Below, in pieces: positions 2,287 to 64,000 of a stretch of DNA of 64,000 bases (positions are counted from its first letter, which is position 1; every line of letters starts with the position of its first letter). A program made the position numbers and the translations under genes. Origin of the DNA: Patescibacteria group bacterium (GTDB lineage Bacteria; Patescibacteriota; Minisyncoccia; Phycocordibacterales; Phycocordibacteraceae); NCBI GenBank assembly GCA_013815345.1, contig JACDGK010000003.1, positions 18,897-82,896 of the forward strand, read 5' to 3'. The notes below the pieces were generated by a model, which saw only the letters and a list, made by a program, of their open reading frames with translations, ran no database searches and had not been told where the DNA came from.

Positions 2287-2802
2287 TTGCGCGCGGAGCA
2301 TTGGATATCGAAACTTCGGCGTAAGGTATTGAATTGGCCCGAACACCAGAAGTGGATTACGGTGGGTGTAGAAGACCTACTTGACAAGCGGACCTATTTT
2401 AGCTTGCGTTCCGTCTGGTTACTTTATCGCGTAGATAGTAAATTTGCGGAGGATATAAATATAATCGCAGACAAATTCGTATTGAAGCGCGGATGGAATA
2501 CGACGGGCAAGCTAGCCATGGAAATGTCGATCGCCTACCTTATCGAAGAAGTTGCGCTAAACCTGCGCATTCGCGTCGGAGACGCTATCGATGATGAATA
2601 TTACCTTGGAGAAACCTTGAACGTTCTCCCTAGGCTTTATCGCGGCGAGTACATCAAAACACCCGCTGAGTTAATTGGCCGGCGCGCTAAATCGGTGCCC
2701 GAGTATCGGTTTTTCGAGTGGGGCGAGAAGGGTTGGGCCGAATGGGTGGACCGGCCCGTCACGCGATCCGCGAAGTTTCGGCTCATCGACGGTGGCGCTT
2801 AG
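2287..2802 (+). CDS. Hypothetical protein in the GC-elevated islet between tRNA-Arg and tRNA-Val
   Basis: ORF of 171 aa. GC rises toward its 3' end. No family was recognised. Confidence 0.35.
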   Translation: MRAEHWISKLRRKVLNWPEHQKWITVGVEDLLDKRTYFSLRSVWLLYRVDSKFAEDINIIADKFVLKRGWNTTGKLAMEMSIAYLIEEVALNLRIRVGDAIDDEYYLGETLNVLPRLYRGEYIKTPAELIGRRAKSVPEYRFFEWGEKGWAEWVDRPVTRSAKFRLIDGGA

Positions 2803-2952
2803 GGTGGCGCGGGGGGATTCAGCCCGACCCGTCCCAACAGACTACCCTCATGTTCGCATGTCCAACAACGAACCCGCATGCAGTGGGTCGGGGGTCGCGG
2901 AATGAAACTCCTCCTACGACGGAACCAGCGCGCAGCCGTCCTCGGCAGCAAG

Positions 2953-3468
2953 ATGGTGTTCACCCTTGAGGTGCGAGCGGACCTCACGGCGGACGAGAAG
3001 GCGAGCATCGCCCGGTACAAGCTCGGCGACACGGTTCTCTATGAGAAGAAGACGATGACGGACCGTGGGAGCGGGCTCATCGGCCTGGCTTCCCGCGCCG
3101 CGTTTCGCGCCATGAACATCAGCGTGAGCGTGAACGATCTTGCCGGGGGAAAGAAGGTCGAGTGCAAGGATATCGTCGAAATGATCGCGGTGATCGACCA
3201 GATCAAGGAAGCCGCCGAGCTTTTCAAAAAGCTCGAACTTGGAAATACAGCCTACCTTCGGTTCGAATTGCCATCTGTCGATGAAAAACGCGAAGCGCTC
3301 AAATTGATACTGTCGAACTTGGTTGCGGATGGAAAAGAGCTAGCGTTTAGGCTGCAATTCCCCTTCGACGAGATCGCAAAAGAGCGAATTTCTGCCTACG
3401 GTGGGCGATGGAGGGCTCGAACCCCCGACCTTCGCAGTGTAAATGCGCTGCTCTACCAACTGAGCTAA
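2953..3468 (+). CDS. Hypothetical protein with a GC3-rich 5' half; its 3' end overlaps tRNA-Val on the opposite strand
   Basis: The tracked ORF is 2878..3468. The internal Met at 2953 (MVFTLEVRADL..) is the likelier start. The 5' half uses strongly GC3 codons, unlike neighbouring genes. The last ~65 nt run through the tRNA-Val gene on the opposite strand, so the true C-terminus is uncertain. Confidence 0.3.
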   Translation: MVFTLEVRADLTADEKASIARYKLGDTVLYEKKTMTDRGSGLIGLASRAAFRAMNISVSVNDLAGGKKVECKDIVEMIAVIDQIKEAAELFKKLELGNTAYLRFELPSVDEKREALKLILSNLVADGKELAFRLQFPFDEIAKERISAYGGRWRARTPDLRSVNALLYQLS

Positions 3469-3474
3469 TCGCCC
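3402..3474 (-). tRNA. tRNA-Val (anticodon TAC)
   Basis: The minus-strand fold gives acceptor GGGCGAT/ATCGCCC. The D-arm is GCTCAGTTGGTAGAGC. The anticodon loop is TTTACAC (TAC) on a 4-bp stem plus a G:A pair. The T-arm is GGTCGGGGGTTCGAGCCCTCC and the discriminator is A. Confidence 0.8.
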
Positions 3475-5350: not shown

Positions 5351-5956
5351 ATGCAAAACGTTATTACTCCCATAAAAACCGAGGAGCGGACTAAGCTCGG
5401 CATCCGTCCGGGTGACACCGTGCGCGTCCACCAGAAAATCATAGAAAAAGGCAAGACCCGCATTCAGATATTCGAAGGTCTCGTGCTCGCGGTCAAGCAC
5501 GGTACTGAGGCAGGTGCGACCTTCACGGTACGCGCTACGCTTTCAGGCGTCGGTGTCGAGAAGATTTTCCCGCTCTACGCGTCATTTATCGAAAAAATTG
5601 AGATTACCCGCCGTTCGAAAGTTCGCCGCGCAAAGCTTTACTTCATCCGCGAAAAAGTCGCTCGTGAAGTACGTCGCCAGCTTCGCAATATGCGTATGGT
5701 TACTATTTCTTCTGACGATTTTGCTGCAGAAGAAGAAGTTGTAACGACTACTGAAGTCGAAGAGTCTCCTGCCGGAAGCGTTGCAGAAGGAGTCGAACCA
5801 GTAGTAGCGGTTGAAGAGGAACTTGAGACAAAAGACCCAGCTCAGCCAGGTGAACTCGTCGCGGAAGCAGAAGAATCAGCTGCAGAACCCATTTCAGTCG
5901 ATGCGAACCCCGATGTTGAAGCACCTCTCGTCGAGGAACCTCCAAAAGAAGGATAA
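5351..5956 (+). CDS. rplS: Ribosomal protein L19 with an ~85 aa acidic C-terminal extension
   Basis: The N-terminal ~115 aa match L19 ([27 protein letters not shown]...RRAKLYFIR). The C-terminus is an E/V/A-rich tail. Confidence 0.85.
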
Positions 5957-6011: not shown

Positions 6012-6719
6012 TTGAATTTACTTTGTCATACTGGCCGCATGGGAACTCCCGGAAGAAAACCAAGTAGAAAGGAGGAAATACAATGGTCTTCTAATATTGC
6101 ATACGCGGTAGGACTTATTGCGACGGATGGTTGTCTATCTGGAAATGGCAAAAATATTGATTTAACATCTAAGGACCGAGAACAACTTGAGAATTTCCTA
6201 ATATGTATAGAAAAAAATGTTCCAATTAGCACAAAAGCTTCGAGTTTCGCACTAAAACCAATAACACACGTTCAGTTCAGTGACGTCGTCTTGTATCGAT
6301 TTTTTCTGTCAGTTGGACTTACACCTCGCAAATCACTCACTATCGGAGCACTTAAGGTCCCGGATGAATATTTCTTCGATTTTTTACGAGGTTCTTATGA
6401 TGGAGATGGATGTTTCTATAGTTACTTTGACCCGAGATGGAAAAGCAGTTTTATGTTCTATTTAAGTTTTACTTCAGCAAGTCCCAAACATATCTTATGG
6501 CTTCGAGCGACCATTGTTCGACTTTGTTCAGTGAAGGGTCACGTAACACAAGTTGGGAAAAGAACACTCATGACAAATCTTCGGTACGCAAAGAAAGAAG
6601 CAACTATTGTACTATCACATATGTACCCTTCTTCCTCGGTACTCTGCTTAACTCGAAAGAGATTGAAAATAATTCGCGCACTCGGTATAGTTGGAATGTC
6701 GCTAGTACAAACTAGTTAA
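6012..6719 (+). CDS. Free-standing double-motif LAGLIDADG homing endonuclease
   Basis: Has two LAGLIDADG motifs, YAVGLIATDGCL and LRGSYDGDGCF. Length is 235 aa. GC is low (~37%) relative to neighbours. The real start may be at Met 6039. The stop is 2 nt before tRNA-Leu. Confidence 0.8.
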   Translation: MNLLCHTGRMGTPGRKPSRKEEIQWSSNIAYAVGLIATDGCLSGNGKNIDLTSKDREQLENFLICIEKNVPISTKASSFALKPITHVQFSDVVLYRFFLSVGLTPRKSLTIGALKVPDEYFFDFLRGSYDGDGCFYSYFDPRWKSSFMFYLSFTSASPKHILWLRATIVRLCSVKGHVTQVGKRTLMTNLRYAKKEATIVLSHMYPSSSVLCLTRKRLKIIRALGIVGMSLVQTS

Positions 6720-8688: not shown

Positions 8689-8834
8689 CGCCTATCATTC
8701 TCAGCTTCTCCCTGACACCAGCCATATATTCAGGGTCTGATAATATAGTTAGGTAATCTGTACCCCTCTCGCCCATTGACACTTATACTATTTATGTAGT
8801 ATAGTATTCCAACGTTCTTTGATATTCAACTTGC

Positions 8835-8888
8835 TTTTGCCATAGCAGAAAGCGGCTTATTCCTAGGCCTTTCTCTGCTATGGCAAAG
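8835..8888. repeat. Imperfect inverted repeat at the left edge of a GC-rich islet
   Basis: TTTGCCATAGCAGAAAG ... CTTTCTCTGCTATGGCAAA, two ~18 nt arms separated by 16 nt. Confidence 0.5.
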
Positions 8889-8956
8889 CACTGCTACAGC
8901 TCCTATAACCTCGGGTAGAGGGAAGCTCCCGACTATTAGTCGGTACGGAGACTGAC

Positions 8957-9488
8957 ATGACAATCAAGTACAGCGAACTGACACTTGGCCAAATCGAGGC
9001 CATCATCAACAAGCTCGGCGGCATCGATGCCGCGAAACGCTTCCTTTCGGGGGCGTCCGAAGTGGTCGTGAAAAGCCACGTCATCGATGGCTGGAAGGTG
9101 GAGGAACACCAAACGGCAGGTCCCCGCAACACGGGTCTTGGTCGAATGGAACGCCTCCATGGTCGAGCTTTGGCTCGCCGAAGGCCAGAAGAACGACAAG
9201 GTCATCGAGGACAACAAGCTCCGCACGGAAGTGGTGAAGAAGTCTCCCTTCAACGCCAACGTCCTCGACTACCTGCTCGCGAACCCCGACCTCATTCCCG
9301 AGGAATGGAAGAAAGATGAAAAGAGCAACACCCGCCACATCTTCTTCTGGGGCACCATCTACCGCGACTCGCTCGGCAGCCTGTACGTCCGTTACCTGTG
9401 CTGGGGCGACGGCAGGTGGTACTGGGGCAGCTACTGCCTGGACTACCACTGGAACGGCCGCAGCCCTGCGGCGATGCTGACAAGTTGA
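8957..9488 (+). pseudogene. GC3-rich gene of unknown function disrupted by a +1 frameshift near 9100-9140
   Basis: ORF 8957..9319 reads as a plausible protein up to ..VIDGWKVEEHQ and then decays into Arg-rich junk. ORF 9087..9488 in the +1 frame is protein-like from ..VEWNASMVELWLAEGQKNDKV onward. A CCCC homopolymer lies at the switch point. Local GC is ~60% against ~45% in the flanks. Confidence 0.45.
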
Positions 9489-9628
9489 ACTTGGGCTTCT
9501 GAAACTTAGGACCCTTGGGTTCTTGGAACTTAGCTCCGATTTTTCTTTTGGACCCCGCGTCTTCTACAGATGCGGGATCTTTGCTTTGCTCTTCGGCACT
9601 TCACCCTATATGATTAAATAACAACCAC

Positions 9629-10096
9629 ATGATTCAACCTATTAAAGGGTTTTTCGCAGAATTCCAGAAATTTGCTACTCGTGGCAACTTTATTGATTTA
9701 GCGATTGGTATCGTCATCGGTACCTCTTTCACCGCGGTCACCAACTCCTTGGTGAACAACATTCTAACGCCCCCTATCGGTCTTCTGATCGGGGGCGTGA
9801 ATTTCAACCAACTCGTTATTCCGCTTGGGGGCACAGCGCAAATTCAGTATGGTGTTTTCCTCCAAACACTTCTCAACTTTGTCATTACAGCCCTCGCACT
9901 CTTCGTAATCGTGCGTCTTATTAATCGTGTGGAAGAAATCGCGAAGCGTCGCAAGAAACAAGATGCGGCACAGACAGCACCTGCGGCAGCGGATAGTCCT
10001 GAAGTCGCGGTGCTTAAAGATATTCGTGAGGCACTTAAACACCTCAACATACTGGAGCTAGTACACGCGGCGCCTGAGACTCCTCATATACCCTAA
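9629..10096 (+). CDS. mscL: Large-conductance mechanosensitive channel MscL
   Basis: FAEFQKFATRGNFIDLAIGIVIGTSFTAVTNSLVNNILTPPIG matches the MscL TM1 and N-terminal signature. Length is 155 aa. Confidence 0.85.
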   Translation: MIQPIKGFFAEFQKFATRGNFIDLAIGIVIGTSFTAVTNSLVNNILTPPIGLLIGGVNFNQLVIPLGGTAQIQYGVFLQTLLNFVITALALFVIVRLINRVEEIAKRRKKQDAAQTAPAAADSPEVAVLKDIREALKHLNILELVHAAPETPHIP

Positions 10097-10105
10097 CCAT
10101 ATTTT

Positions 10106-10804
10106 ATGAAACAACTTCTCACCGGCATCATACTCATCCTCGTACTTGGTATCGGTGCGTTCTTTTATCGCAACCAGATCGAACATCCCGGAACGACATT
10201 TCCATCAGTAGTGCCACCTACAAGCAGTACGGGCGCCACCGCCTGTACTGACGAAGCAAAAATTTGTCCTGATGGCACTGCGGTAGGACGAACCGGTTCG
10301 AACTGCGCATTCACTCCTTGTCTTCCTCCCAACGTCGAAGTCAGTTTCGGCTCTACGACGCTCTCTTTTGTGCTTCCTTCGGGATATACAAAAAATACCG
10401 CAGGTGGAGACTCAGCGTTCGTCGCGTCCTATCTGCAATCATCGGTCTCTCCCGATTCAGCGAGTGCCATCACTATTCACCGCTATGCGATTCCAGAGGG
10501 CGGGAGCGCAAGTCAGGTGATGCTTCAGAACACTACGCTTGATCCTTCGGGCATACAGGCGACTTCAACGAGCCAGTTCAAACAGGTCAGCGAAGGACAA
10601 AATACGTTTTCAGCTATACAGATAGGCCGTTTCGAGGGCCAAGTACAGACCGCGTACTACCTTACCCGCATGAACGACGTGCTTCGTTTTGATATTACCG
10701 AGCGGAATGTGCAGAATTGGACCGACCCAAATTTCAACGCTTCAAGCCTTCCGCAGCATCAAGCATTTCTTCAGATGCTCGCAACGCTCCAAGTATCCTC
10801 ATAG
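10106..10804 (+). CDS. Hypothetical secreted protein with a Cys-rich N-terminal region
   Basis: Has a signal anchor LLTGIILILVLGIGAFF followed by four Cys in 35 aa. No family was recognised. Confidence 0.4.
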   Translation: MKQLLTGIILILVLGIGAFFYRNQIEHPGTTFPSVVPPTSSTGATACTDEAKICPDGTAVGRTGSNCAFTPCLPPNVEVSFGSTTLSFVLPSGYTKNTAGGDSAFVASYLQSSVSPDSASAITIHRYAIPEGGSASQVMLQNTTLDPSGIQATSTSQFKQVSEGQNTFSAIQIGRFEGQVQTAYYLTRMNDVLRFDITERNVQNWTDPNFNASSLPQHQAFLQMLATLQVSS

Positions 10805-47438: not shown

Positions 47439-48303
47439 CTTTCTACGTGTCTACGACCAAAAAACCAACCAAAAAACGGAGCGGATAGGCCGTATGGCCT
47501 CCTGCGCGCAAGCGCCTGAACCGCCCCGCAAGGGGTGTTTTTAATTCGGAGAATTAAAAACCCCAAGGAAGGCGTTTTGCAAAATAAACATTGGAAGAGT
47601 AGACACTGACCTTTGACAGACGAATACGCATAAAAAGGTAAATCAACGCCATGATGTGAAAGCATCGTGGTAATGAAATTGCATAGTTATATGAAAATAT
47701 AACTTGCACATGAAGGTAACACTTTATGTGCTCACAAAAATTGTGGTGTTCAGGTTTCCGCACAGGAAACGTGAAGGGTATACGGTGGATGCCTTGGCTT
47801 ATGCATGCGATGAAGGACGTGACTAATCTGCGAAATTCTTCGGGGAGGCGATTTGTAGCCTTTGATCCGGAGGTGTCCGAATGGGGAAACCCGATCTGTA
47901 TAGATCATCTTTCTGTTTATCAGAAAGAAGCGAACCTGGGGAAGTGAAACATCTCAGTACCCAGAGGAATAGAAAACAACAGCGAGTTGTTTTCTGTCTG
48001 CTCGATGCTTCGAGCGGATGGAAAACAACTCTCGTGATTCCCTAAGTAGCGGCGAGCGAAACGGGAGAAGCCCAAACCAGATACTTCGGTATGTGGGGTT
48101 GTAAGACGGAAGTACCGTACTTGTACGGCAAGAGTTACAAAAGATATATATAACGGAAGCTGCTGGGAAGCAGCGCCCTAGAGGGTAATGGCCCCGTACG
48201 TGAAATGTAGATCTCTCTTGTGCTTCTGTTCTTGAGTAGTTCGAGACATGAATAGCTCGGATGAATCTGCCGGAACTAACCGGTAAGGCTAAATACTGCA
48301 TAA

Positions 48304-48349
<46 letters not shown>

Positions 48350-48920
48350 GAAAGGGGAGTGAAATAGAACTGAAACCGTATACTTACAAAGGGTTATGGG
48401 GGGCGTTCGCGTCCTTTATAGCGTGCCTATTGAAGAATGAGCCTGCGAGTGTATGTATGTTGCTTGGCTAAGTCCGTTATGGGACGAAGCCCTAGGGAAA
48501 CCGAGTGTTAATAGCGCGTCCGTATCATACATACGACCCGAAGCCGGGTGAGCTTACCATGGACAGGTTGAAGTTTGTCGAAAGACAGATGGAGGACCGA
48601 ACCCGTACGTCGTACAACGCGTTGGGATGATCTGTGGTAAGGAGTGAAAAGCTAATCGAACCCGGTAATAGCTGGTTCTCTCTGAAACATCTTTTGGGAT
48701 GGCGTCGTGTGATCCTTCCGGGGGTAGAGCACTGGAAGGGGTAAACAGGGAGAAATCTCGTTACTCCTATCAACCTCCGAATACCGGAAATTACAACACG
48801 GCAGTTAGACCATGGGGGCGAAGCTCCATTGGTCAAAAGGGGAAGAGCCCGGATCGTCAGTTAAGGCCCCTAAATCGACACTGAGTACAACTTAAGGAAG
48901 TGAGGATCCTTCGACAATGA

Positions 48921-48952
<32 letters not shown>

Positions 48953-50610
48953 GATAGCGTAACAGCTCACTCATCGAGGGTCCTTGCGCCGAAGATAATC
49001 GGGGTTAAGTGTCGTGCCGAAGCTACGGGTTTGTGCACTTCATAGAGGAGGATGATTTTTTCATATCTTCTGTGAAGTGCACAAGCGGTAAGAGAGCGTT
49101 CCGTTCTGCGATGAAGGAAAAGGGGTGACCCATTCTGGAGCGTACGGAAGTGAGAATGCAGGTACAAGTAACCACAATGCGGGTGAGAACCCCGCACGTC
49201 GAAAGATCAAGGTTTCCTCAGCTATGGTGATCAACTGAGGGTTAGTCGGGCCTAAGGGGATGGTGAAAACCGCACCCGATGGACACAGGGTTAATATTCC
49301 CTGACCGTTTGCACATGCGATGGAGAGACGGACTGCTGTATGTAGTGCCCATTATTGGATTTGGGTCAGTGCCGTGAGGGGGTGTCTTAGGTAAATCCGG
49401 GACGCATATACTCCGAGCGGAAAAGCAACATCCTTCTACGGAGGGGTGGAGACTACGGAGCGCGGTTCCAAGAAAATCTTCTAAGCTTCAGTGTGTAACG
49501 TCCGTACCGCAAACCGACACAGGTGATCAGCTCGAGTAGAGTAAGACGAACGAGTGAGAGGTCCTCAAGGAACTCGGCAAAATAGCGGCCGTAAGTTAGC
49601 GATAAGGCCTGCCCCTCTCCGGAGGGGCCGCAGCGAAAGATTTTCTGGCAACTGTTTACCAAAAACACAGCTCCCTGCGAACTCGTAAGAGGATGTATAG
49701 GGGGTGACGCCTGACCAATGCCGGAAGGTCAAGCAGGGACGGTACATTGATTTCGATTGATGTGCTAGGCCCTATAAGCCCCGGTGAATGTCGGCGATAA
49801 CTATAATCGTCCTAAGGTTCTGGGTTGGAGCAATCCTGCCCAGAACGGATTGGGACGATTATAGGAGACCGTAAACAGCTCTGAGAAGAGTACGTCATTA
49901 ATAGCTACCTCTTTCTTTGGAAACAAAGATTGAATCCGCGACTCATATGAGAGGCCATACGTCGTGCACCATGCAAATGGTTGAAGATATGGTCCTTCTT
50001 GGAGGAATAGAAGAGCGTAATTCCTTGTCTGGTAAGTTCAGACGTGCACGAATGGCGTAATGACTGGAAAACTGTCTCGAGGACTCGCTCGGTGAAAATG
50101 CAATACCGGTGAAGATGCCGGTTACCTGTAGTTAGACGAAAAGACCCCAGGAGCTTTACTACAGCTTCGTATTGGGGCTGCGTGGTGCCTGCGTAGAATA
50201 GGTGGGAGGCTTTGAAGCATTCCTTTCGGGGAGTGTGGAGCCGCCAGTGAAATACCACTCTTGCATTGTGCAGTCTCTAACCCTCGTAAGAACTACGAGG
50301 GGACCGTGCGTGGCGGGTAGTTTTGGTGGGGCGCTATCCTCCTAAAAAGTAACGGAGGAGTCTATTAAGGTTGGCTAGGCGCGAATGGAAACCGTGCCGA
50401 TAGTGTAATGGCAGAAGCCAGCTTAACTGCAAGACGTACATGTCGAGCAGATGCGAAAGCAGAGCATAGTGATCCGATGGTTCGCCTTAGATGCGGCCAG
50501 AGCTCAACGGATAAAAGTTACCCTGGGGATAACAGGCTAGTTCCGCCCAAGCGTCCATAGCGACGGCGGAGTTCGGCACCTCGATGTCGGCTCACCTTAG
50601 CGCGGGGCTG

Positions 50611-51371
50611 GAGAAAACATACCTTCTCTCCTCATTGGAAACGATGAGGTAATTAAACAAGCTCAAAACGGTGAAGGCTGACTTATGCAAGCGACCTTAT
50701 GTTTCGGAGGTCCCAGGTTTAGTGTTAAACTTGATGTATGAGAGCTAACGCCGTGGGAAAGAAGTGTTCTGAAGTAGAGCGAGCATATATAGCTGGATTT
50801 TTGGATGCCGATGGAGCCATTATGGCTCTTATCGAACCGCATTCAGAAAAACAGTATAAGTTTCGAGTTCGCGTTGCGATTAAAATAACGCAACAGGACA
50901 GGAAAGTCTTAGATTGGATACGTACAGTACTTGCGGTTGGAATCGTTCGTGCAAATCGCGCTGGCACTAGTCGCCAGACGTTTGATCTGCACATTCGTGA
51001 TCAAGCGCACGTACAGAAAATTCTGACAAGTCTCTTACCATTTATCCGTGTCAAAAAACGACAAGCAGAAATGGCTCTTGAGATTGTGAATTCAAAAATC
51101 ATCACGTCAGAAGATCTACTCAAAAATGCCCGTATCGCCGACGCTTTGTCGCAGTTGAACGTTCGGTCCAAGAATCGGCGTAAAAACTTTGTGGCAAAGG
51201 TCGAAGAATATCTCTCCCCTAACGACTGAGCACGATTCTTTTGGGAATCGTGCGAGATATGCCCACTGTAGTGGGGTATAACACGGCTTGCACCTAAAAC
51301 TGTAATGGTGACATTACAAACATGGTGATGGAATAGTCTGATACTTGTCGGAAGGCAAGAACAACAAAGAA
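50611..51371 (+). mobile_element. Group I intron 1 in 23S (domain V, near E. coli ~2500) carrying a LAGLIDADG ORF; boundaries +/-6 nt
   Basis: Exon homology stops after ..GTCGGCTCACCTTAGCGCGGGGCT and resumes at ..GAGGTCCCAAGCGTTTGGCTGTTCGCC. ~760 nt lie between them. Confidence 0.6.
50738..51229 (+). CDS. Intron-encoded single-motif LAGLIDADG homing endonuclease (I-CreI-like homodimer type)
   Basis: 163 aa. The motif is YIAGFLDADGAI. It is embedded in 23S intron 1. Confidence 0.8.
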   Translation: MRANAVGKKCSEVERAYIAGFLDADGAIMALIEPHSEKQYKFRVRVAIKITQQDRKVLDWIRTVLAVGIVRANRAGTSRQTFDLHIRDQAHVQKILTSLLPFIRVKKRQAEMALEIVNSKIITSEDLLKNARIADALSQLNVRSKNRRKNFVAKVEEYLSPND

Positions 51372-51434
51372 TTGAGGTCCCAAGCGTTTGGCTGTTCGCC
51401 AATTAAAAAGGTACGCGAGCTGGGTTCAGACCGT

Positions 51435-51780
51435 GTAGGAATAGAGTCGCAGAATTTATTTTGCGGAATCGATTCTTACACCGTCTGAATCCCTTTGAGA
51501 TATCTGTTTATCAGAACTTAATAAAGTGCGAAGTGAATGTCTTTTCGTCTATGAAATTATGATAGAACCAACAACCATCACGGCGATGTGCTACAGGAAT
51601 GTAGTACGTACCATCAACTAATATCGGTGAAACCCTCCCCATTAATTTGGCGGGCAACACCGAGGGAAGCTGAGAAAATCTCGGTACCCGTAGAGACTAC
51701 ACGTTGATCATCCGACCATTTAATTTATTTGAGGATGAAGATATAGTCCGACCCTCCGAGTAATCGAAGTTAACAAAGTG
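51435..51780 (+). mobile_element. Group I intron 2 in 23S (ORF-less, 346 nt, near the A-loop)
   Basis: The 5' exon ends ..GGGTTCAGACCGT (terminal U). The 3' exon resumes CGTGAGACAGGTTGGTCTCCTATC, and the preceding intron nucleotide is G. The E. coli equivalent is the contiguous GAACGU|CGUGAGACAG. Confidence 0.6.
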
Positions 51781-52148
51781 CGTGAGACAGGTTGGTCTCC
51801 TATCTACTACAGGCGTTGATTCTTGAGGAGGGTTGCCCCTAGTACGAGAGGACCGGGGTGAACTGACCTCTGGTCTACCAGCTGTTTTGCCAAAAGCATC
51901 GCTGGGTAGCTATGTCGGGTCGGGATAACTGCTGAAAGCATATAAGCGGGAAGCCCACTCCAAGATTAGGAATCGTTATGAGACACCTTAAAGATTATGA
52001 GGTTGATAGGCTTTAGATGTACGCACAGTAATGTGTTCAGTCGAGAAGTACTAATATGTCCAGTTTTCTGTGCGGAATTCTGCATGGCACAATTTTTGTG
52101 TTCGCAATCCGTTTTATGCGTATTCGTTTTTGTACAAGGTACGCATGT

Positions 52149-52272
52149 ACCCAGAACGCTGGTGATTTATCGGAAGGGCCACACCCGTTCTCATTCCGAA
52201 CACGGCAGTTAAGCCTTCTTGAGCCGATGGTACTCGTAAGGGGAGAGTAGGTTGTCGCCAGCGTTCTGGGCA
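52149..52272 (+). rRNA. rrf: 5S rRNA
   Basis: The terminal helix is CCCAGAACGC..GCGTTCTGGG. Internal CCGAACACGGCAGTTAAG and GTACTCGTAAGGGGAGAGTAGG match 5S loops. Confidence 0.8.
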
Positions 52273-63012: not shown

Positions 63013-63152
63013 AGGTAATACCGCCCCCAAAAGGGGCTGGGGTTTTGTTTGCTCCGAGGAATAGTTTTGGAGCAAGTTCATTGACAACTACATAGTTCAA
63101 ATTAGACGAGAACCAAGAGAAGTGTTTTCTTGTGTTCCGCCTATTCTTAATG

Positions 63153-64000
<848 letters not shown>

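What the first reader, a model, noticed from the sequence alone, without database searches (positions are those of the whole stretch)
8835..9620. GC-rich islet with a +1 frameshifted gene, bounded by an inverted repeat and tandem ACTTAGG-containing repeats
From ~8900 to 9490 GC is ~60% with GC3-rich codons, unlike the flanks. The coding signal switches from frame 2 (8957..~9110, ..VIDGWKVEEHQ) to frame 0 (~9130..9488, ..VEWNASMVELWLAEGQKNDKV..WGTIYRDS..) at a CCCC run. This is a single-base frameshift that either inactivates the gene or is an assembly or programmed event. The islet is preceded by an imperfect inverted repeat (8835-8888). It is followed by two tandem ~22-nt repeats (CTTGGGCTTCTGAAACTTAGG / CTTGGGTTCTTGGAACTTAGC, 9488-9535) and a GC hairpin. 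Codon style resembles the 2650-3250 islet, hinting at a common donor.
Basis: seen in the sequence. Interest (0 to 1): 0.55.

Follow-up and report, generated by a model that had tools for sequence, protein, structure and literature searches.

The report
Broken orphan DGR variable-protein gene
The GC-rich islet is a dead copy of a gene that diversity-generating retroelements (DGRs) hypermutate in Patescibacteria, kept with its regulatory leader and 3' elements but without its reverse transcriptase; this is an ordinary kind of decay, though the family shows some apparently undescribed conserved features.

Summary
Window 8957-9488 is one gene split over two frames, about 10 GC points above the genome.

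The repaired 176-aa protein has 564 full-length homologues in Patescibacteria. In relatives the gene sits in a DGR cassette: target, template repeat (TR), bAvd on the opposite strand, then RVT_1. The variable region (VR) and TR differ almost only at TR adenines. In the window, 17 variable VR codons are all NNC.

The window copy has no TR, Avd or RT within about 81 kb. It carries two lesions:
- a 1-bp insertion at 9136, not at the CCCC run;
- a 27-bp in-frame deletion of a nearly invariant motif.

Three other assemblies are identical where they overlap it, two of them across both lesions. I read it as an orphan DGR target pseudogene.

The flanking features are conserved parts of the target-gene module, not island borders:
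- the upstream inverted repeat is a covarying leader hairpin found in about 54 loci;
- the downstream "tandem repeats" and hairpin are a family-wide post-VR element plus a terminator.

GC-richness is a trait of the target gene family (78 of 80 loci), not of Avd or RT. The second islet is an unrelated remnant of a mobile element.

A covarying 9-13-nt complementarity between the leader and the VR end appears to be new.

The parts
8776..8805 (+). Sigma-70-like promoter of the target-gene module (TTGACA, 18 nt, TATAGT)
   Evidence: Matches 11 of 12 consensus positions. The same TTGACA-N17/18-TATAMT box sits at the same place in relatives. Activity is inferred, not shown.
8813..8903 (+). Conserved 5' leader element.
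   Evidence: Covariance model R1 scores 97.8 bits here, the third-best of all matches. R1 matches on the + strand just upstream of the target gene in about 54 of 82 loci. RNAalifold predicts 22 pairs, 8 of them with changes on both sides. The loop varies between 23 and 28 nt. Fold z = -6.8.
8825..8833 (+). 5' half of the long-range complementarity (TTCAACTTG), immediately 5' of the leader hairpin
   Evidence: Complementary to 9481-9489. A perfect complement of at least 8 nt occurs at the same two places in 31 of 53 loci, and the two halves covary.
8904..8956 (+). Rest of the leader: two small hairpins (CCTC..GAGG and CCGAC..GTCGG) and a Shine-Dalgarno GGAG at 8948-8951
   Evidence: The whole leader 8812-8956 folds at -55.3 kcal/mol, z = -4.8. 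The stems stay complementary with changed sequence in L001 (CTCGC..GCGAG, CGGC..GCCG), seen by eye. This is not a formal test.
8957..9488 (+). DGR variable (target) protein gene, now a pseudogene. It reads in frame 2 up to 9135 and in frame 0 from 9137.
   Evidence: 564 homologues cover the full length of the repaired protein. Removing T9136 gives one 176-aa ORF. NCBI annotated only the C-terminal 109 aa (P0001).
9088..9089 (+). Junction of a 27-bp in-frame deletion, which removes TNADPFVPE
   Evidence: DNA alignment with L083 and L001. The lost D-x-D-A-D-P-F-x-P motif contains nearly invariant residues.
9136..9136 (+). Extra T that causes the frameshift
   Evidence: The window reads CACGGGTCTTGG and L083 reads CACGGG-CTTGG. 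Deleting this base restores ..PRNTGLVEWNAS.., which matches P0002.
9361..9483 (+). Variable region (VR), the part homologous to the template repeats of related cassettes; its last ~20 nt are IMH-like
   Evidence: 17 variable codons are all NNC (TGC, GGC, GAC, TAC, AGC, CAC, AAC, CGC), as expected from AAC codons in a template. Relatives show 0-1 non-A and 7-18 A mismatches between VR and TR. Against the nearest foreign TR (L012) the window VR has 14 A and 6 non-A mismatches. The invariant W is changed to C (TGG to TGC), and the IMH-like end differs from the family consensus at 4 positions.
9481..9489 (+). 3' half of the long-range complementarity (CAAGTTGAA). It spans the VR/TR homology boundary and the stop codon.
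9489..9545 (+). Post-VR element: CTT/G-rich short repeats of the type YTTGGNCC. It includes the two ~20-nt 'tandem repeats' at 9490-9509 and 9514-9533.
   Evidence: Repeat family D2. The same pattern follows the stop codon in most family members listed, both RT-linked and orphan. Its structure is unresolved.
9554..9592 (+). GC hairpin and T-rich tail (..ATCTTTGCTTTGCT): an intrinsic-terminator-like end of the module. It sits where DGRs carry their GC-rich inverted repeat.
   Evidence: Terminator-like site with 9 pairs. Fold z = -3.8. It is homologous to CCCCGCG-loop-CGCGGGG-TTCTTGCTTTGCT in L012, L035, L053 and L075, and similarity to relatives ends right after it.

Best explanation
Window 8776-9592 is an orphan, decayed copy of the target-gene module of a Patescibacteria diversity-generating retroelement (DGR).

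**How intact relatives work.** The roughly 180-aa protein ends in a variable region (VR). A template repeat (TR) about 350-490 nt downstream is transcribed and reverse-transcribed by the adjacent RVT_1 enzyme with bAvd. Adenines are copied at random. The cDNA then replaces the VR, rewriting AAC codons to NNC.

**What the window copy keeps.**
- the promoter;
- the structured leader;
- the coding region with a once-diversified VR;
- the post-VR element;
- the terminator hairpin.

**What it lacks.** The TR, avd and the RT are absent nearby.

**How it is broken.** A 1-bp insertion at 9136 and a 27-bp deletion at 9088/9089 interrupt the gene. Non-adenine changes affect an invariant Trp and the IMH-like end.

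**Shown.**
- family membership;
- the DGR nature of the family;
- the lesions;
- the absence of TR, Avd and RT within about 81 kb;
- conservation of the flanking elements.

**Inferred.**
- the gene is non-functional;
- the VR was once diversified, either by a cassette that was lost or by one elsewhere in the genome;
- the roles of the promoter, leader and post-VR elements.
For: **The family is real and the repaired protein belongs to it.**
- 564 homologues of 170-200 aa cover 99-100% of the repaired protein.
- The alignment shows a conserved scaffold with hypervariable C-terminal positions.

**The family is a DGR target.**
- Homologue P0004 lies directly upstream of bAvd (PF22296) and RVT_1 (PF00078).
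- Its TR is visible at L001 10918-11010.
- 32-37 of 82 loci have the same target(+)-TR(+)-Avd(-)-RT(+) order.
- Most RT-linked loci have a TR 350-490 nt after the stop with 0-1 non-A and 7-18 A mismatches over 85 nt.
- The window VR has NNC at 17 variable codons.

**The window copy has no diversification machinery nearby.**
- No TR-like sequence in 64 kb, by a 65%-identity scan and by an adenine-aware scan; the best candidate has 27 non-A mismatches.
- No RT or Avd by tblastn in the window, nor in a further 9.3 kb upstream and 7.7 kb downstream.

**The lesions are real.**
- Both lesions are placed by DNA alignment with relatives.
- The sequence is identical in other assemblies.

**The flanking elements are family features.**

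**High GC is a family trait.**

**Orphan copies are common.**
- At least 30 of 82 loci are orphans.
- Orphans can be true remote targets. The orphan L015 VR matches the TR of L050 from the same MAG with 22 A mismatches and about 1 non-A mismatch.
Against: - No TR, RT or Avd was found for this genome, so DGR membership of this particular copy rests on homology and on the NNC codon pattern, not on a TR/VR pair.
- Only about 81 kb of the genome could be examined, so a DGR elsewhere cannot be excluded. The RT search could not identify one.
- Read-level support for the two lesions was not available. The two assemblies that span the lesions may derive from the same reads.
- The fold could not be assigned to the C-type lectin fold. 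Foldseek against PDB and BFVD gave nothing significant, only C-type lectin hits at TM 0.3-0.4.
- Pfam has no model for the family.
Confidence: 0.85

Rival explanations
1. The gene is a live remote DGR target. The frameshift is an assembly or sequencing artefact, or a minority haplotype. A DGR elsewhere in the genome still diversifies it.
For: - Orphan copies are common and mostly intact.
- One orphan (L015) fits the TR of a cassette in the same MAG.
- GC excess is the same in orphan and RT-linked copies.
- All flanking elements are retained, and the leader scores third-best with model R1.
Against: - The sequence is identical in GCA_020064125.1 and in the Logan assembly across both lesions.
- The insertion is not in a homopolymer.
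- The 27-bp deletion removes a nearly invariant motif.
- An invariant Trp in the VR scaffold is changed by a non-adenine substitution.
- The VR is identical in a different run, SRR35365629, so there is no sign of ongoing variation.
Confidence: 0.08
2. The split is a programmed +1/-1 ribosomal frameshift, or a regulated recoding event, that yields the full-length protein.
For: The two frames overlap over about 245 nt that are open in both, so read-through by frameshifting is geometrically possible.
Against: - There is no slippery heptamer or homopolymer at 9136.
- None of the 564 homologues is split.
- The nearest relative has the same sequence minus one base.
- A second, independent lesion is present.
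Confidence: 0.02
3. The islet is a recently imported foreign fragment from a GC-rich donor shared with the 2650-3250 islet. The inverted repeat and tandem repeats are its insertion borders.
For: - These are the two most GC-rich spots in the 64 kb.
- GC3 is similar in the two (0.72-0.87 and 0.83).
- The module sits at a different place than the cassette in L001, although the MscL-SIMPL-NusG neighbourhood is shared.
Against: - High GC is a property of this gene family in 78 of 80 Patescibacteria loci. RT and Avd of the same cassettes are below host GC.
- The inverted repeat and the repeats lie inside the conserved module, downstream of its promoter and upstream of its terminator.
- The second islet belongs to an unrelated family tied to TrwB-like, recombinase and T4SS genes in 59-64% GC contigs.
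Confidence: 0.05

Closest known systems
Diversity-generating retroelements, prototype Bordetella phage BPP-1 (mtd VR, avd, TR, brt, IMH and downstream GC-rich inverted repeat)
   Same: In relatives of the window gene:
- a C-terminal VR;
- a TR with adenine-only differences;
- AAC-to-NNC codon rewriting;
- Avd and RVT_1 genes next to it;
- VR/TR homology that ends in an IMH-like GC-rich stretch followed by an inverted repeat.

The component descriptions are from PMC5758913 and PMC3240598.
   Different: - The window copy has only the target module.
- In this lineage avd is on the opposite strand, between TR and RT.
- A roughly 55-nt CTT/G-rich repeat element lies between the IMH-like end and the GC hairpin.
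- The hairpin looks like an intrinsic terminator.
- The target gene has a conserved structured leader that is complementary to the VR end.

I found none of these last features described in the papers I read.
CPR/Patescibacteria DGRs ('clade 2' of Roux et al. 2021, PMC8144416; the 'CPR set' with unknown VR classes UVR1-6 of Wu et al. 2018, PMC5758913)
   Same: - Cell-encoded and restricted to Patescibacteria.
- Small target proteins with no recognisable domain or transmembrane segment. This agrees with the absence of Pfam hits and with the organisms named.
   Different: - I could not check whether this VR class equals one of UVR1-6, because the logos are in supplements I did not read.
- The window copy is a pseudogene without RT.
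Non-adjacent or remote DGR targets (Treponema denticola and others; PMC5758913, PMC4891356)
   Same: A target gene with a VR lies far from any RT. In this family the orphan L015 fits the TR of L050 in the same MAG.
   Different: - Wu et al. found remote targets (>100 kb away) only outside the CPR set.
- The window copy cannot be paired with any TR, and it is broken.
C-type lectin-fold DGR variable proteins (Mtd, TvpA, AvpA, TaqVP)
   Same: - C-terminal VR on a beta-rich domain with a Trp/Gly-rich scaffold.
- The only recurring Foldseek hits are C-type lectins (MCL, BDCA2, EMS16).
   Different: - The hits are not significant (E > 0.6, TM 0.26-0.41).
- None of the solved DGR variable proteins was hit.
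- No sequence match to any PDB chain.

Membership tests
DGR target (variable-protein) gene | VR paired with a TR that differs from it (almost) only at TR adenines | tested here: not met
   For the window copy, no TR was found in 64 kb or in the extensions. For the family it is met: 0-1 non-A and 7-18 A mismatches in most RT-linked loci.
DGR target (variable-protein) gene | DGR-type reverse transcriptase (RVT_1), usually with Avd, in the cassette or genome | tested here: not met
   For the window copy, tblastn with the RT and Avd of L001 finds nothing within about 81 kb. The rest of the genome is not testable. For the family, 32-37 of 82 loci have Avd and RT directly downstream.
DGR target (variable-protein) gene | Variable codons of the form NNC/NNT at positions that are AAC/AAT in the template | tested here: met
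   17 variable codons in 9399-9464 are all NNC. They sit at the positions that are AAC in the TRs of L012, L014, L053 and L001.
DGR target (variable-protein) gene | Homology of the whole protein to proven members of a DGR target family | tested here: met
   53-68% identity over the full length to proteins that sit in complete cassettes, for example P0004.
DGR target (variable-protein) gene | IMH-like end of the VR followed by a GC-rich inverted repeat | tested here: inconclusive
   A hairpin at 9554-9576 is present and homologous to that of relatives. It lies about 65 nt after the VR end and looks like a terminator. The IMH-like stretch differs from the family consensus at 4 positions. Function cannot be tested here.
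DGR target (variable-protein) gene | Intact reading frame (a functional target) | tested here: not met
   A 1-bp insertion at 9136 and a 27-bp deletion at 9088/9089.
C-type lectin-fold variable proteins | CLec fold of the VR-bearing domain | tested here: inconclusive
Programmed ribosomal frameshift site | Slippery sequence at the shift and conservation of the shift in homologues | tested here: not met
   The shift is at GGG-T-CTT, with no slippery motif. All homologues are single ORFs.
Known RNA families (Rfam 15) for the leader hairpin and post-VR element | Match at or above the gathering score | tested here: not met
   Only sub-threshold chance hits, such as mir-72 at 21.9 bits against a gathering score of 60.

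The most novel reading that the evidence does not exclude
In this Patescibacteria DGR lineage the target gene carries its own cis element that marks the recipient VR. This element is a structured 5' leader. The 9-13 nt just before its hairpin are complementary to the exact point where VR and TR stop being homologous (..GCAA|GTTGAAC, including the stop codon).

The pairing covaries across loci:
- TGA-A tails go with T-TCA leaders.
- TAG tails go with CTA leaders.
- GAC goes with GTC in L053, while its close relative L074 has GAA with TTC.

If this pairing, as RNA-RNA, RNA-DNA or within single-stranded DNA, tells the retrohoming machinery which copy is the recipient, it would be a new kind of DGR target-recognition determinant. 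It could also explain why portable 'orphan' target modules with fixed borders are so common. The target-specific GC and GC3 enrichment may belong to the same story.
Probability: 0.25. Interest if true: 0.7.

Novelty: new member of a known kind. Interest (0 to 1): 0.38.

Why it matters
**For this window.** It explains four odd features at once: the GC islet, the split gene, the inverted repeat and the tandem repeats. It corrects the annotation, since NCBI calls only a 109-aa fragment. It also shows that the 'foreign island' reading is wrong. It is a routine case of DGR decay.

**Beyond the window.** The comparison brought out family-wide features that bear on an open question, namely how DGR cDNA finds and replaces the recipient VR:
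- a covarying leader hairpin;
- a covarying long-range complement between the leader and the VR/TR boundary;
- a repeat element after the VR;
- many orphan modules with identical borders;
- a 13-14 point GC gap between target genes and their own RT and Avd genes.

These are testable in reconstituted systems such as the one in PMC12875486.

Tried and rejected
**Searches that found nothing**
- Pfam, PHROGs and PDB sequence searches of the repaired protein and of the family profile gave nothing meaningful. The ScsC_N hits are a 14-residue sub-threshold motif.
- TR search in the window, by plain similarity and by an adenine-aware scan, found nothing.
- tblastn with RT and Avd against the window and against the extensions L084 and L086 found nothing.
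- Rfam found nothing above threshold, at gathering scores for the whole window and at relaxed E-values for 8690-9640.

**Look-ups that failed or were uninformative**
- The look-up of the annotated fragment P0001 was not on record.
- The RT homologue search, meant to spot an RT from the same MAG, returned more than 8000 relatives. None was recognisable as coming from this genome.

**Structure tests of the post-VR element**
- RNAalifold predicted no consensus structure.
- A per-locus hairpin count was only weakly above shuffles: stems of 5 or more pairs in 84% against 59%. I therefore do not claim a structure there.

**Ideas considered and dropped**
- Adenine depletion as the cause of high GC. 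The coding strand is T-poor, not A-poor.
- Integron-like core sites. GTTGAAC fits GTTRRRY, but the TAG-type variants do not, so I treat the fit as coincidence.
- The inverted repeat as a fixed-spacing operator. The spacing varies between 23 and 28 nt.

Full report
**1. What is in the sequence**

The window comes from a Patescibacteria (CPR) contig. It carries Maf, MscL, tRNAs and rRNA genes interrupted by LAGLIDADG ORFs. NCBI names the C-terminal fragment of the gene H0X32_02330, "Patescibacteria group bacterium".

Between maf (ends 8688) and mscL (starts 9629) lies a stretch of 55-59% GC in a 48% GC background. It is the second most GC-rich spot of the 64 kb, z = 2.9.

Two overlapping ORFs, 8957..9319 and 9087..9488, each carry coding signal for part of their length.
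- the upstream inverted repeat, 8836-8859 / 8864-8887, 83% complementary;
- the two 20-nt direct repeats, 9490-9509 / 9514-9533, 80% identical;
- a GC hairpin, 9554-9576.

**2. One gene, two lesions**

Joining the two frames gives a 176-aa protein with 564 homologues of 170-200 aa that span both halves. No Pfam, PHROG or PDB relative exists.

Both frames are open from about 9072 to 9316, so the sequence alone cannot place the shift. DNA alignment with the nearest relative (L083, protein P0002, 68% identical) and with L001 settles it.
- The window has one extra T at 9136 (CACGGG-T-CTTGG). This is 10 nt downstream of the CCCC run and not in a homopolymer.
- The window also lacks 27 bp between 9088 and 9089. 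The missing stretch encodes TNADPFVPE, part of a nearly invariant D-x-D-A-D-P-F-x-P motif.

Removing T9136 restores a single ORF.

The same sequence is found, 100% identical over 2 kb, in a different NCBI assembly (GCA_020064125.1) and in a Logan assembly of SRR11719862. The C-terminal part is identical in a third run, SRR35365629. An assembler artefact is therefore unlikely. The first two assemblies may share reads, however, and I could not look at pileups.

**3. What the gene is**

In the protein alignment the last ~30 residues alternate between a fixed scaffold and hypervariable positions: R-x-L-x-W-x-x-x-x-W-x-W-x-x-x-W-L-x-x-x-W-x-x-x-x-P-A-A.

In the window, 17 variable codons are all NNC. 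This is the signature expected when AAC codons of a DGR template are copied with random bases opposite adenine.

Genomic context confirms it.
- Homologue P0004 lies directly upstream of a bAvd gene (opposite strand) and an RVT_1 reverse transcriptase.
- The TR is readable at L001 10918-11010. It differs from the VR only where it has A.
- Among 82 loci (80 from species-representative genomes), 32-37 have the same order: target(+), TR(+), Avd(-), RT(+).
- In most RT-linked loci an 85-nt VR core finds a TR 350-490 nt after the stop codon, with 0-1 non-adenine and 7-18 adenine mismatches.

The family is thus a DGR variable protein of the Patescibacteria-restricted DGR lineage described by Roux et al. 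(PMC8144416, "clade 2") and in the "CPR set" of Wu et al. (PMC5758913). According to those papers its targets have no recognisable domains.

An AlphaFold2 model of P0004 is confident (pLDDT 93.4). Foldseek finds no significant neighbour. The only recurring weak hits are C-type lectins at TM 0.26-0.41. The fold assignment stays open.

**4. The window copy is an orphan and is decaying**

- There is no TR-like sequence in the 64 kb. The best adenine-aware candidate has 27 non-A mismatches.
- There is no RT or Avd in the window, nor in 9.3 kb further upstream or 7.7 kb further downstream recovered from other assemblies.
- Similarity to cassette-bearing relatives stops right after the terminator tail (..TTGCTTTGCT, about 9592). 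mscL starts 37 nt later.

Besides the two lesions there are non-adenine changes in the VR.
- The invariant Trp of the W-L pair is Cys (TGG to TGC).
- The IMH-like end (ATGCTGACAAGT) differs at four positions from the common GTGCGTGCAAGT.
- The nearly invariant Ala is Thr.

Orphan copies as such are common. At least 30 of the 82 loci lack RT, Avd and TR within 6 kb, and most of those are intact. They can be real remote targets. The VR of orphan L015 fits the TR of L050 from the same MAG with 22 adenine mismatches and about one other.

The window copy therefore either lost its cassette or was a remote target. Which one cannot be decided without the rest of the genome. An RT search returned more than 8000 relatives and none recognisable from this MAG. 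Either way it now looks like a pseudogene.

**5. The flanking features are parts of the module**

*Upstream.*
- A TTGACA-18-TATAGT box at 8776-8805 (11 of 12) is conserved in relatives.
- It is followed by a conserved leader. The inverted repeat at 8836-8887 is a hairpin whose loop length varies from 23 to 28 nt.
- RNAalifold predicts 22 pairs, 8 with changes on both sides, for example U-A 11 / C-G 5 at one pair.
- A covariance model built from 21 loci finds the element on the + strand just upstream of the gene in about 54 of 82 loci. The window ranks third at 97.8 bits. Reverse-strand scores are about half as high.
- Rfam has no such family.

*Downstream.*
- The "tandem repeats" belong to a ~55-nt CTT/G-rich element that follows the stop codon in most family members listed. 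It consists of units such as YTTGGNCC.
- I could not establish a structure for it.
- The GC hairpin is homologous to CCCCGCG-loop-CGCGGGG-TTCTTGCTTTGCT in relatives and looks like an intrinsic terminator.
- It also sits where DGRs have the GC-rich inverted repeat that promotes homing (PMC3240598, PMC5758913, PMC12875486).

**6. GC content**

- The target gene is GC-richer than its flanks in 78 of 80 loci, mean 57.1% against 46.5%.
- In 26 complete cassettes the target is 57.9% GC, while Avd is 43.7%, RT 44.2% and the flanks 47.6%.
- The excess is the same in RT-linked and orphan copies, 0.109 and 0.105. In the window it is 0.102.

High GC is therefore a trait of this gene family, not a mark of recent import. 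I have no explanation for it. The coding strand is T-poor rather than A-poor.

**7. The second islet**

Window 2700-3235 encodes the first ~110 residues of a ~126-aa family with 934 hits at 65-85% identity. In intact form this gene sits directly upstream of a ~890-aa TrwB-like ATPase, with serine recombinase, ArdC or T4SS genes nearby, in contigs of 59-64% GC.

In the window it is truncated. It runs into native sequence and into tRNA-Val, and it lies between tRNA-Arg and tRNA-Val. It looks like the remnant of an integrative mobile element and is unrelated to the DGR target. The two islets share GC3-rich codons (0.83 against 0.72-0.87) but nothing else.

**8. An unexpected regularity**

The 9-13 nt just 5' of the leader hairpin (window 8825-8833, TTCAACTTG) are the reverse complement of the very end of the ORF (9481-9489, CAAGTTGAA). 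This 3' site spans the point where VR (..GCAA|GTTGAAC) and TR (..GCAA|CTCTCTTC) diverge, plus the stop codon.

- A perfect complement of at least 8 nt at these two fixed places occurs in 31 of 53 loci. Shuffled tails give a mean of about 5.3 nt.
- The two halves covary:
  - tails GCAAGTTGA go with leaders TCAACTTG (14 of 19, none with TAACTTG);
  - tails GCAAGTTAG go with TAACTTG (8 of 19, one with TCAACTTG);
  - GCAAGTAG goes with TACTTG (2 of 2);
  - L053 has GTTGAC with GTCAAC, while its close relative L074 has GTTGAA with TTCAAC.
- The mean complement with a locus's own tail is 7.75 nt. With permuted tails it is 6.42 ± 0.17, and none of 20,000 permutations reaches the observed value. This test does not correct for relatedness of the loci.

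I found no mention of such an element in the DGR papers I read. It may be mRNA 5'-3' pairing, or a device that marks the recipient VR. This is a lead, not a result.

**9. Verdict**

The finding is real, and it is explained as a decayed orphan DGR target module. That makes it a new member of a known kind, of modest interest in itself.

Noticed in passing
window 8825-8833 and 9481-9489; same places in L001, L003, L004, L011, L012, L053, L057, L074, L080 and others: A covarying 9-13-nt complementarity links the target gene's 5' leader to the VR/TR homology boundary plus the stop codon. It is at least 8 nt perfect in 31 of 53 loci. TGA-type tails pair with TCA-type leaders and TAG-type tails with CTA-type leaders.
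   Followed up: partly
window 2700-3235 (ORF 2878..3468), between tRNA-Arg 2179-2251 and tRNA-Val 3400-3474 (-): The second GC islet (60% GC, GC3 0.83) is a truncated copy (aa 1-110 of ~126) of a 934-member family. In intact form that gene precedes a ~890-aa TrwB-like ATPase, with serine recombinase or T4SS genes nearby, in 59-64% GC contigs. It is probably the remnant of an integrative mobile element at a tRNA site.
   Followed up: partly
26 complete cassettes among L001-L082: Within one and the same DGR cassette the target gene is 13-14 GC points richer (57.9%) than Avd (43.7%) and RT (44.2%). The flanks are 47.6%. The excess is equal in orphan and RT-linked copies. This is unexplained.
   Followed up: partly
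L001 10650-10720 and the equivalent place in most RT-linked loci, and in some loci where no RT was seen (L003, L009, L025, L047, L048, L051, L054, L058, L067): A strongly conserved motif, GGYAGTAGGTGAATAYGCGGGNGATTACGGTTTCCYGCTACCGAA, lies between the target's terminator and the TR. It contains a small hairpin. It may be the 5' part of the DGR RNA. It is absent from the window.
   Followed up: no
L003-L083: orphan loci such as L004, L011, L018, L035, L075, L083: At least 30 of 82 family loci are orphan target modules without RT, Avd or TR within 6 kb. Most are intact. Their conserved borders appear the same: the -35 box on the left and the end of the terminator T-tract on the right. One of them (L015) fits the TR of L050 in the same MAG. 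How such modules spread is unknown.
   Followed up: partly
L089 (Logan SRR35365629 contig), equal to window 9387-10499: An independent short contig from another run starts inside the VR, about 26 nt after its start, and is identical to the window through the VR. The break may be chance or may reflect heterogeneity upstream. Reads were not available.
   Followed up: no
window 47776-52263 and 63146-64000; ORFs 50738..51229 and 6012..6719: The 23S rRNA match is split (model 15-2044, then 2090-2472) and stops at model position 2472 of 2925. A LAGLIDADG_1 ORF lies between it and the 5S gene. The 16S gene lies about 11 kb downstream of the 5S gene, an unusual order. Another LAGLIDADG_3 ORF sits just upstream of tRNA-Leu. 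These are typical CPR rRNA insertions, and I did not examine them.
   Followed up: no
L012 5725-7355: One cassette carries two tandem target genes, each with its own copy of the leader element (R1 matches at 5725-5821 and 6592-6685), ahead of Avd and RT.
   Followed up: no
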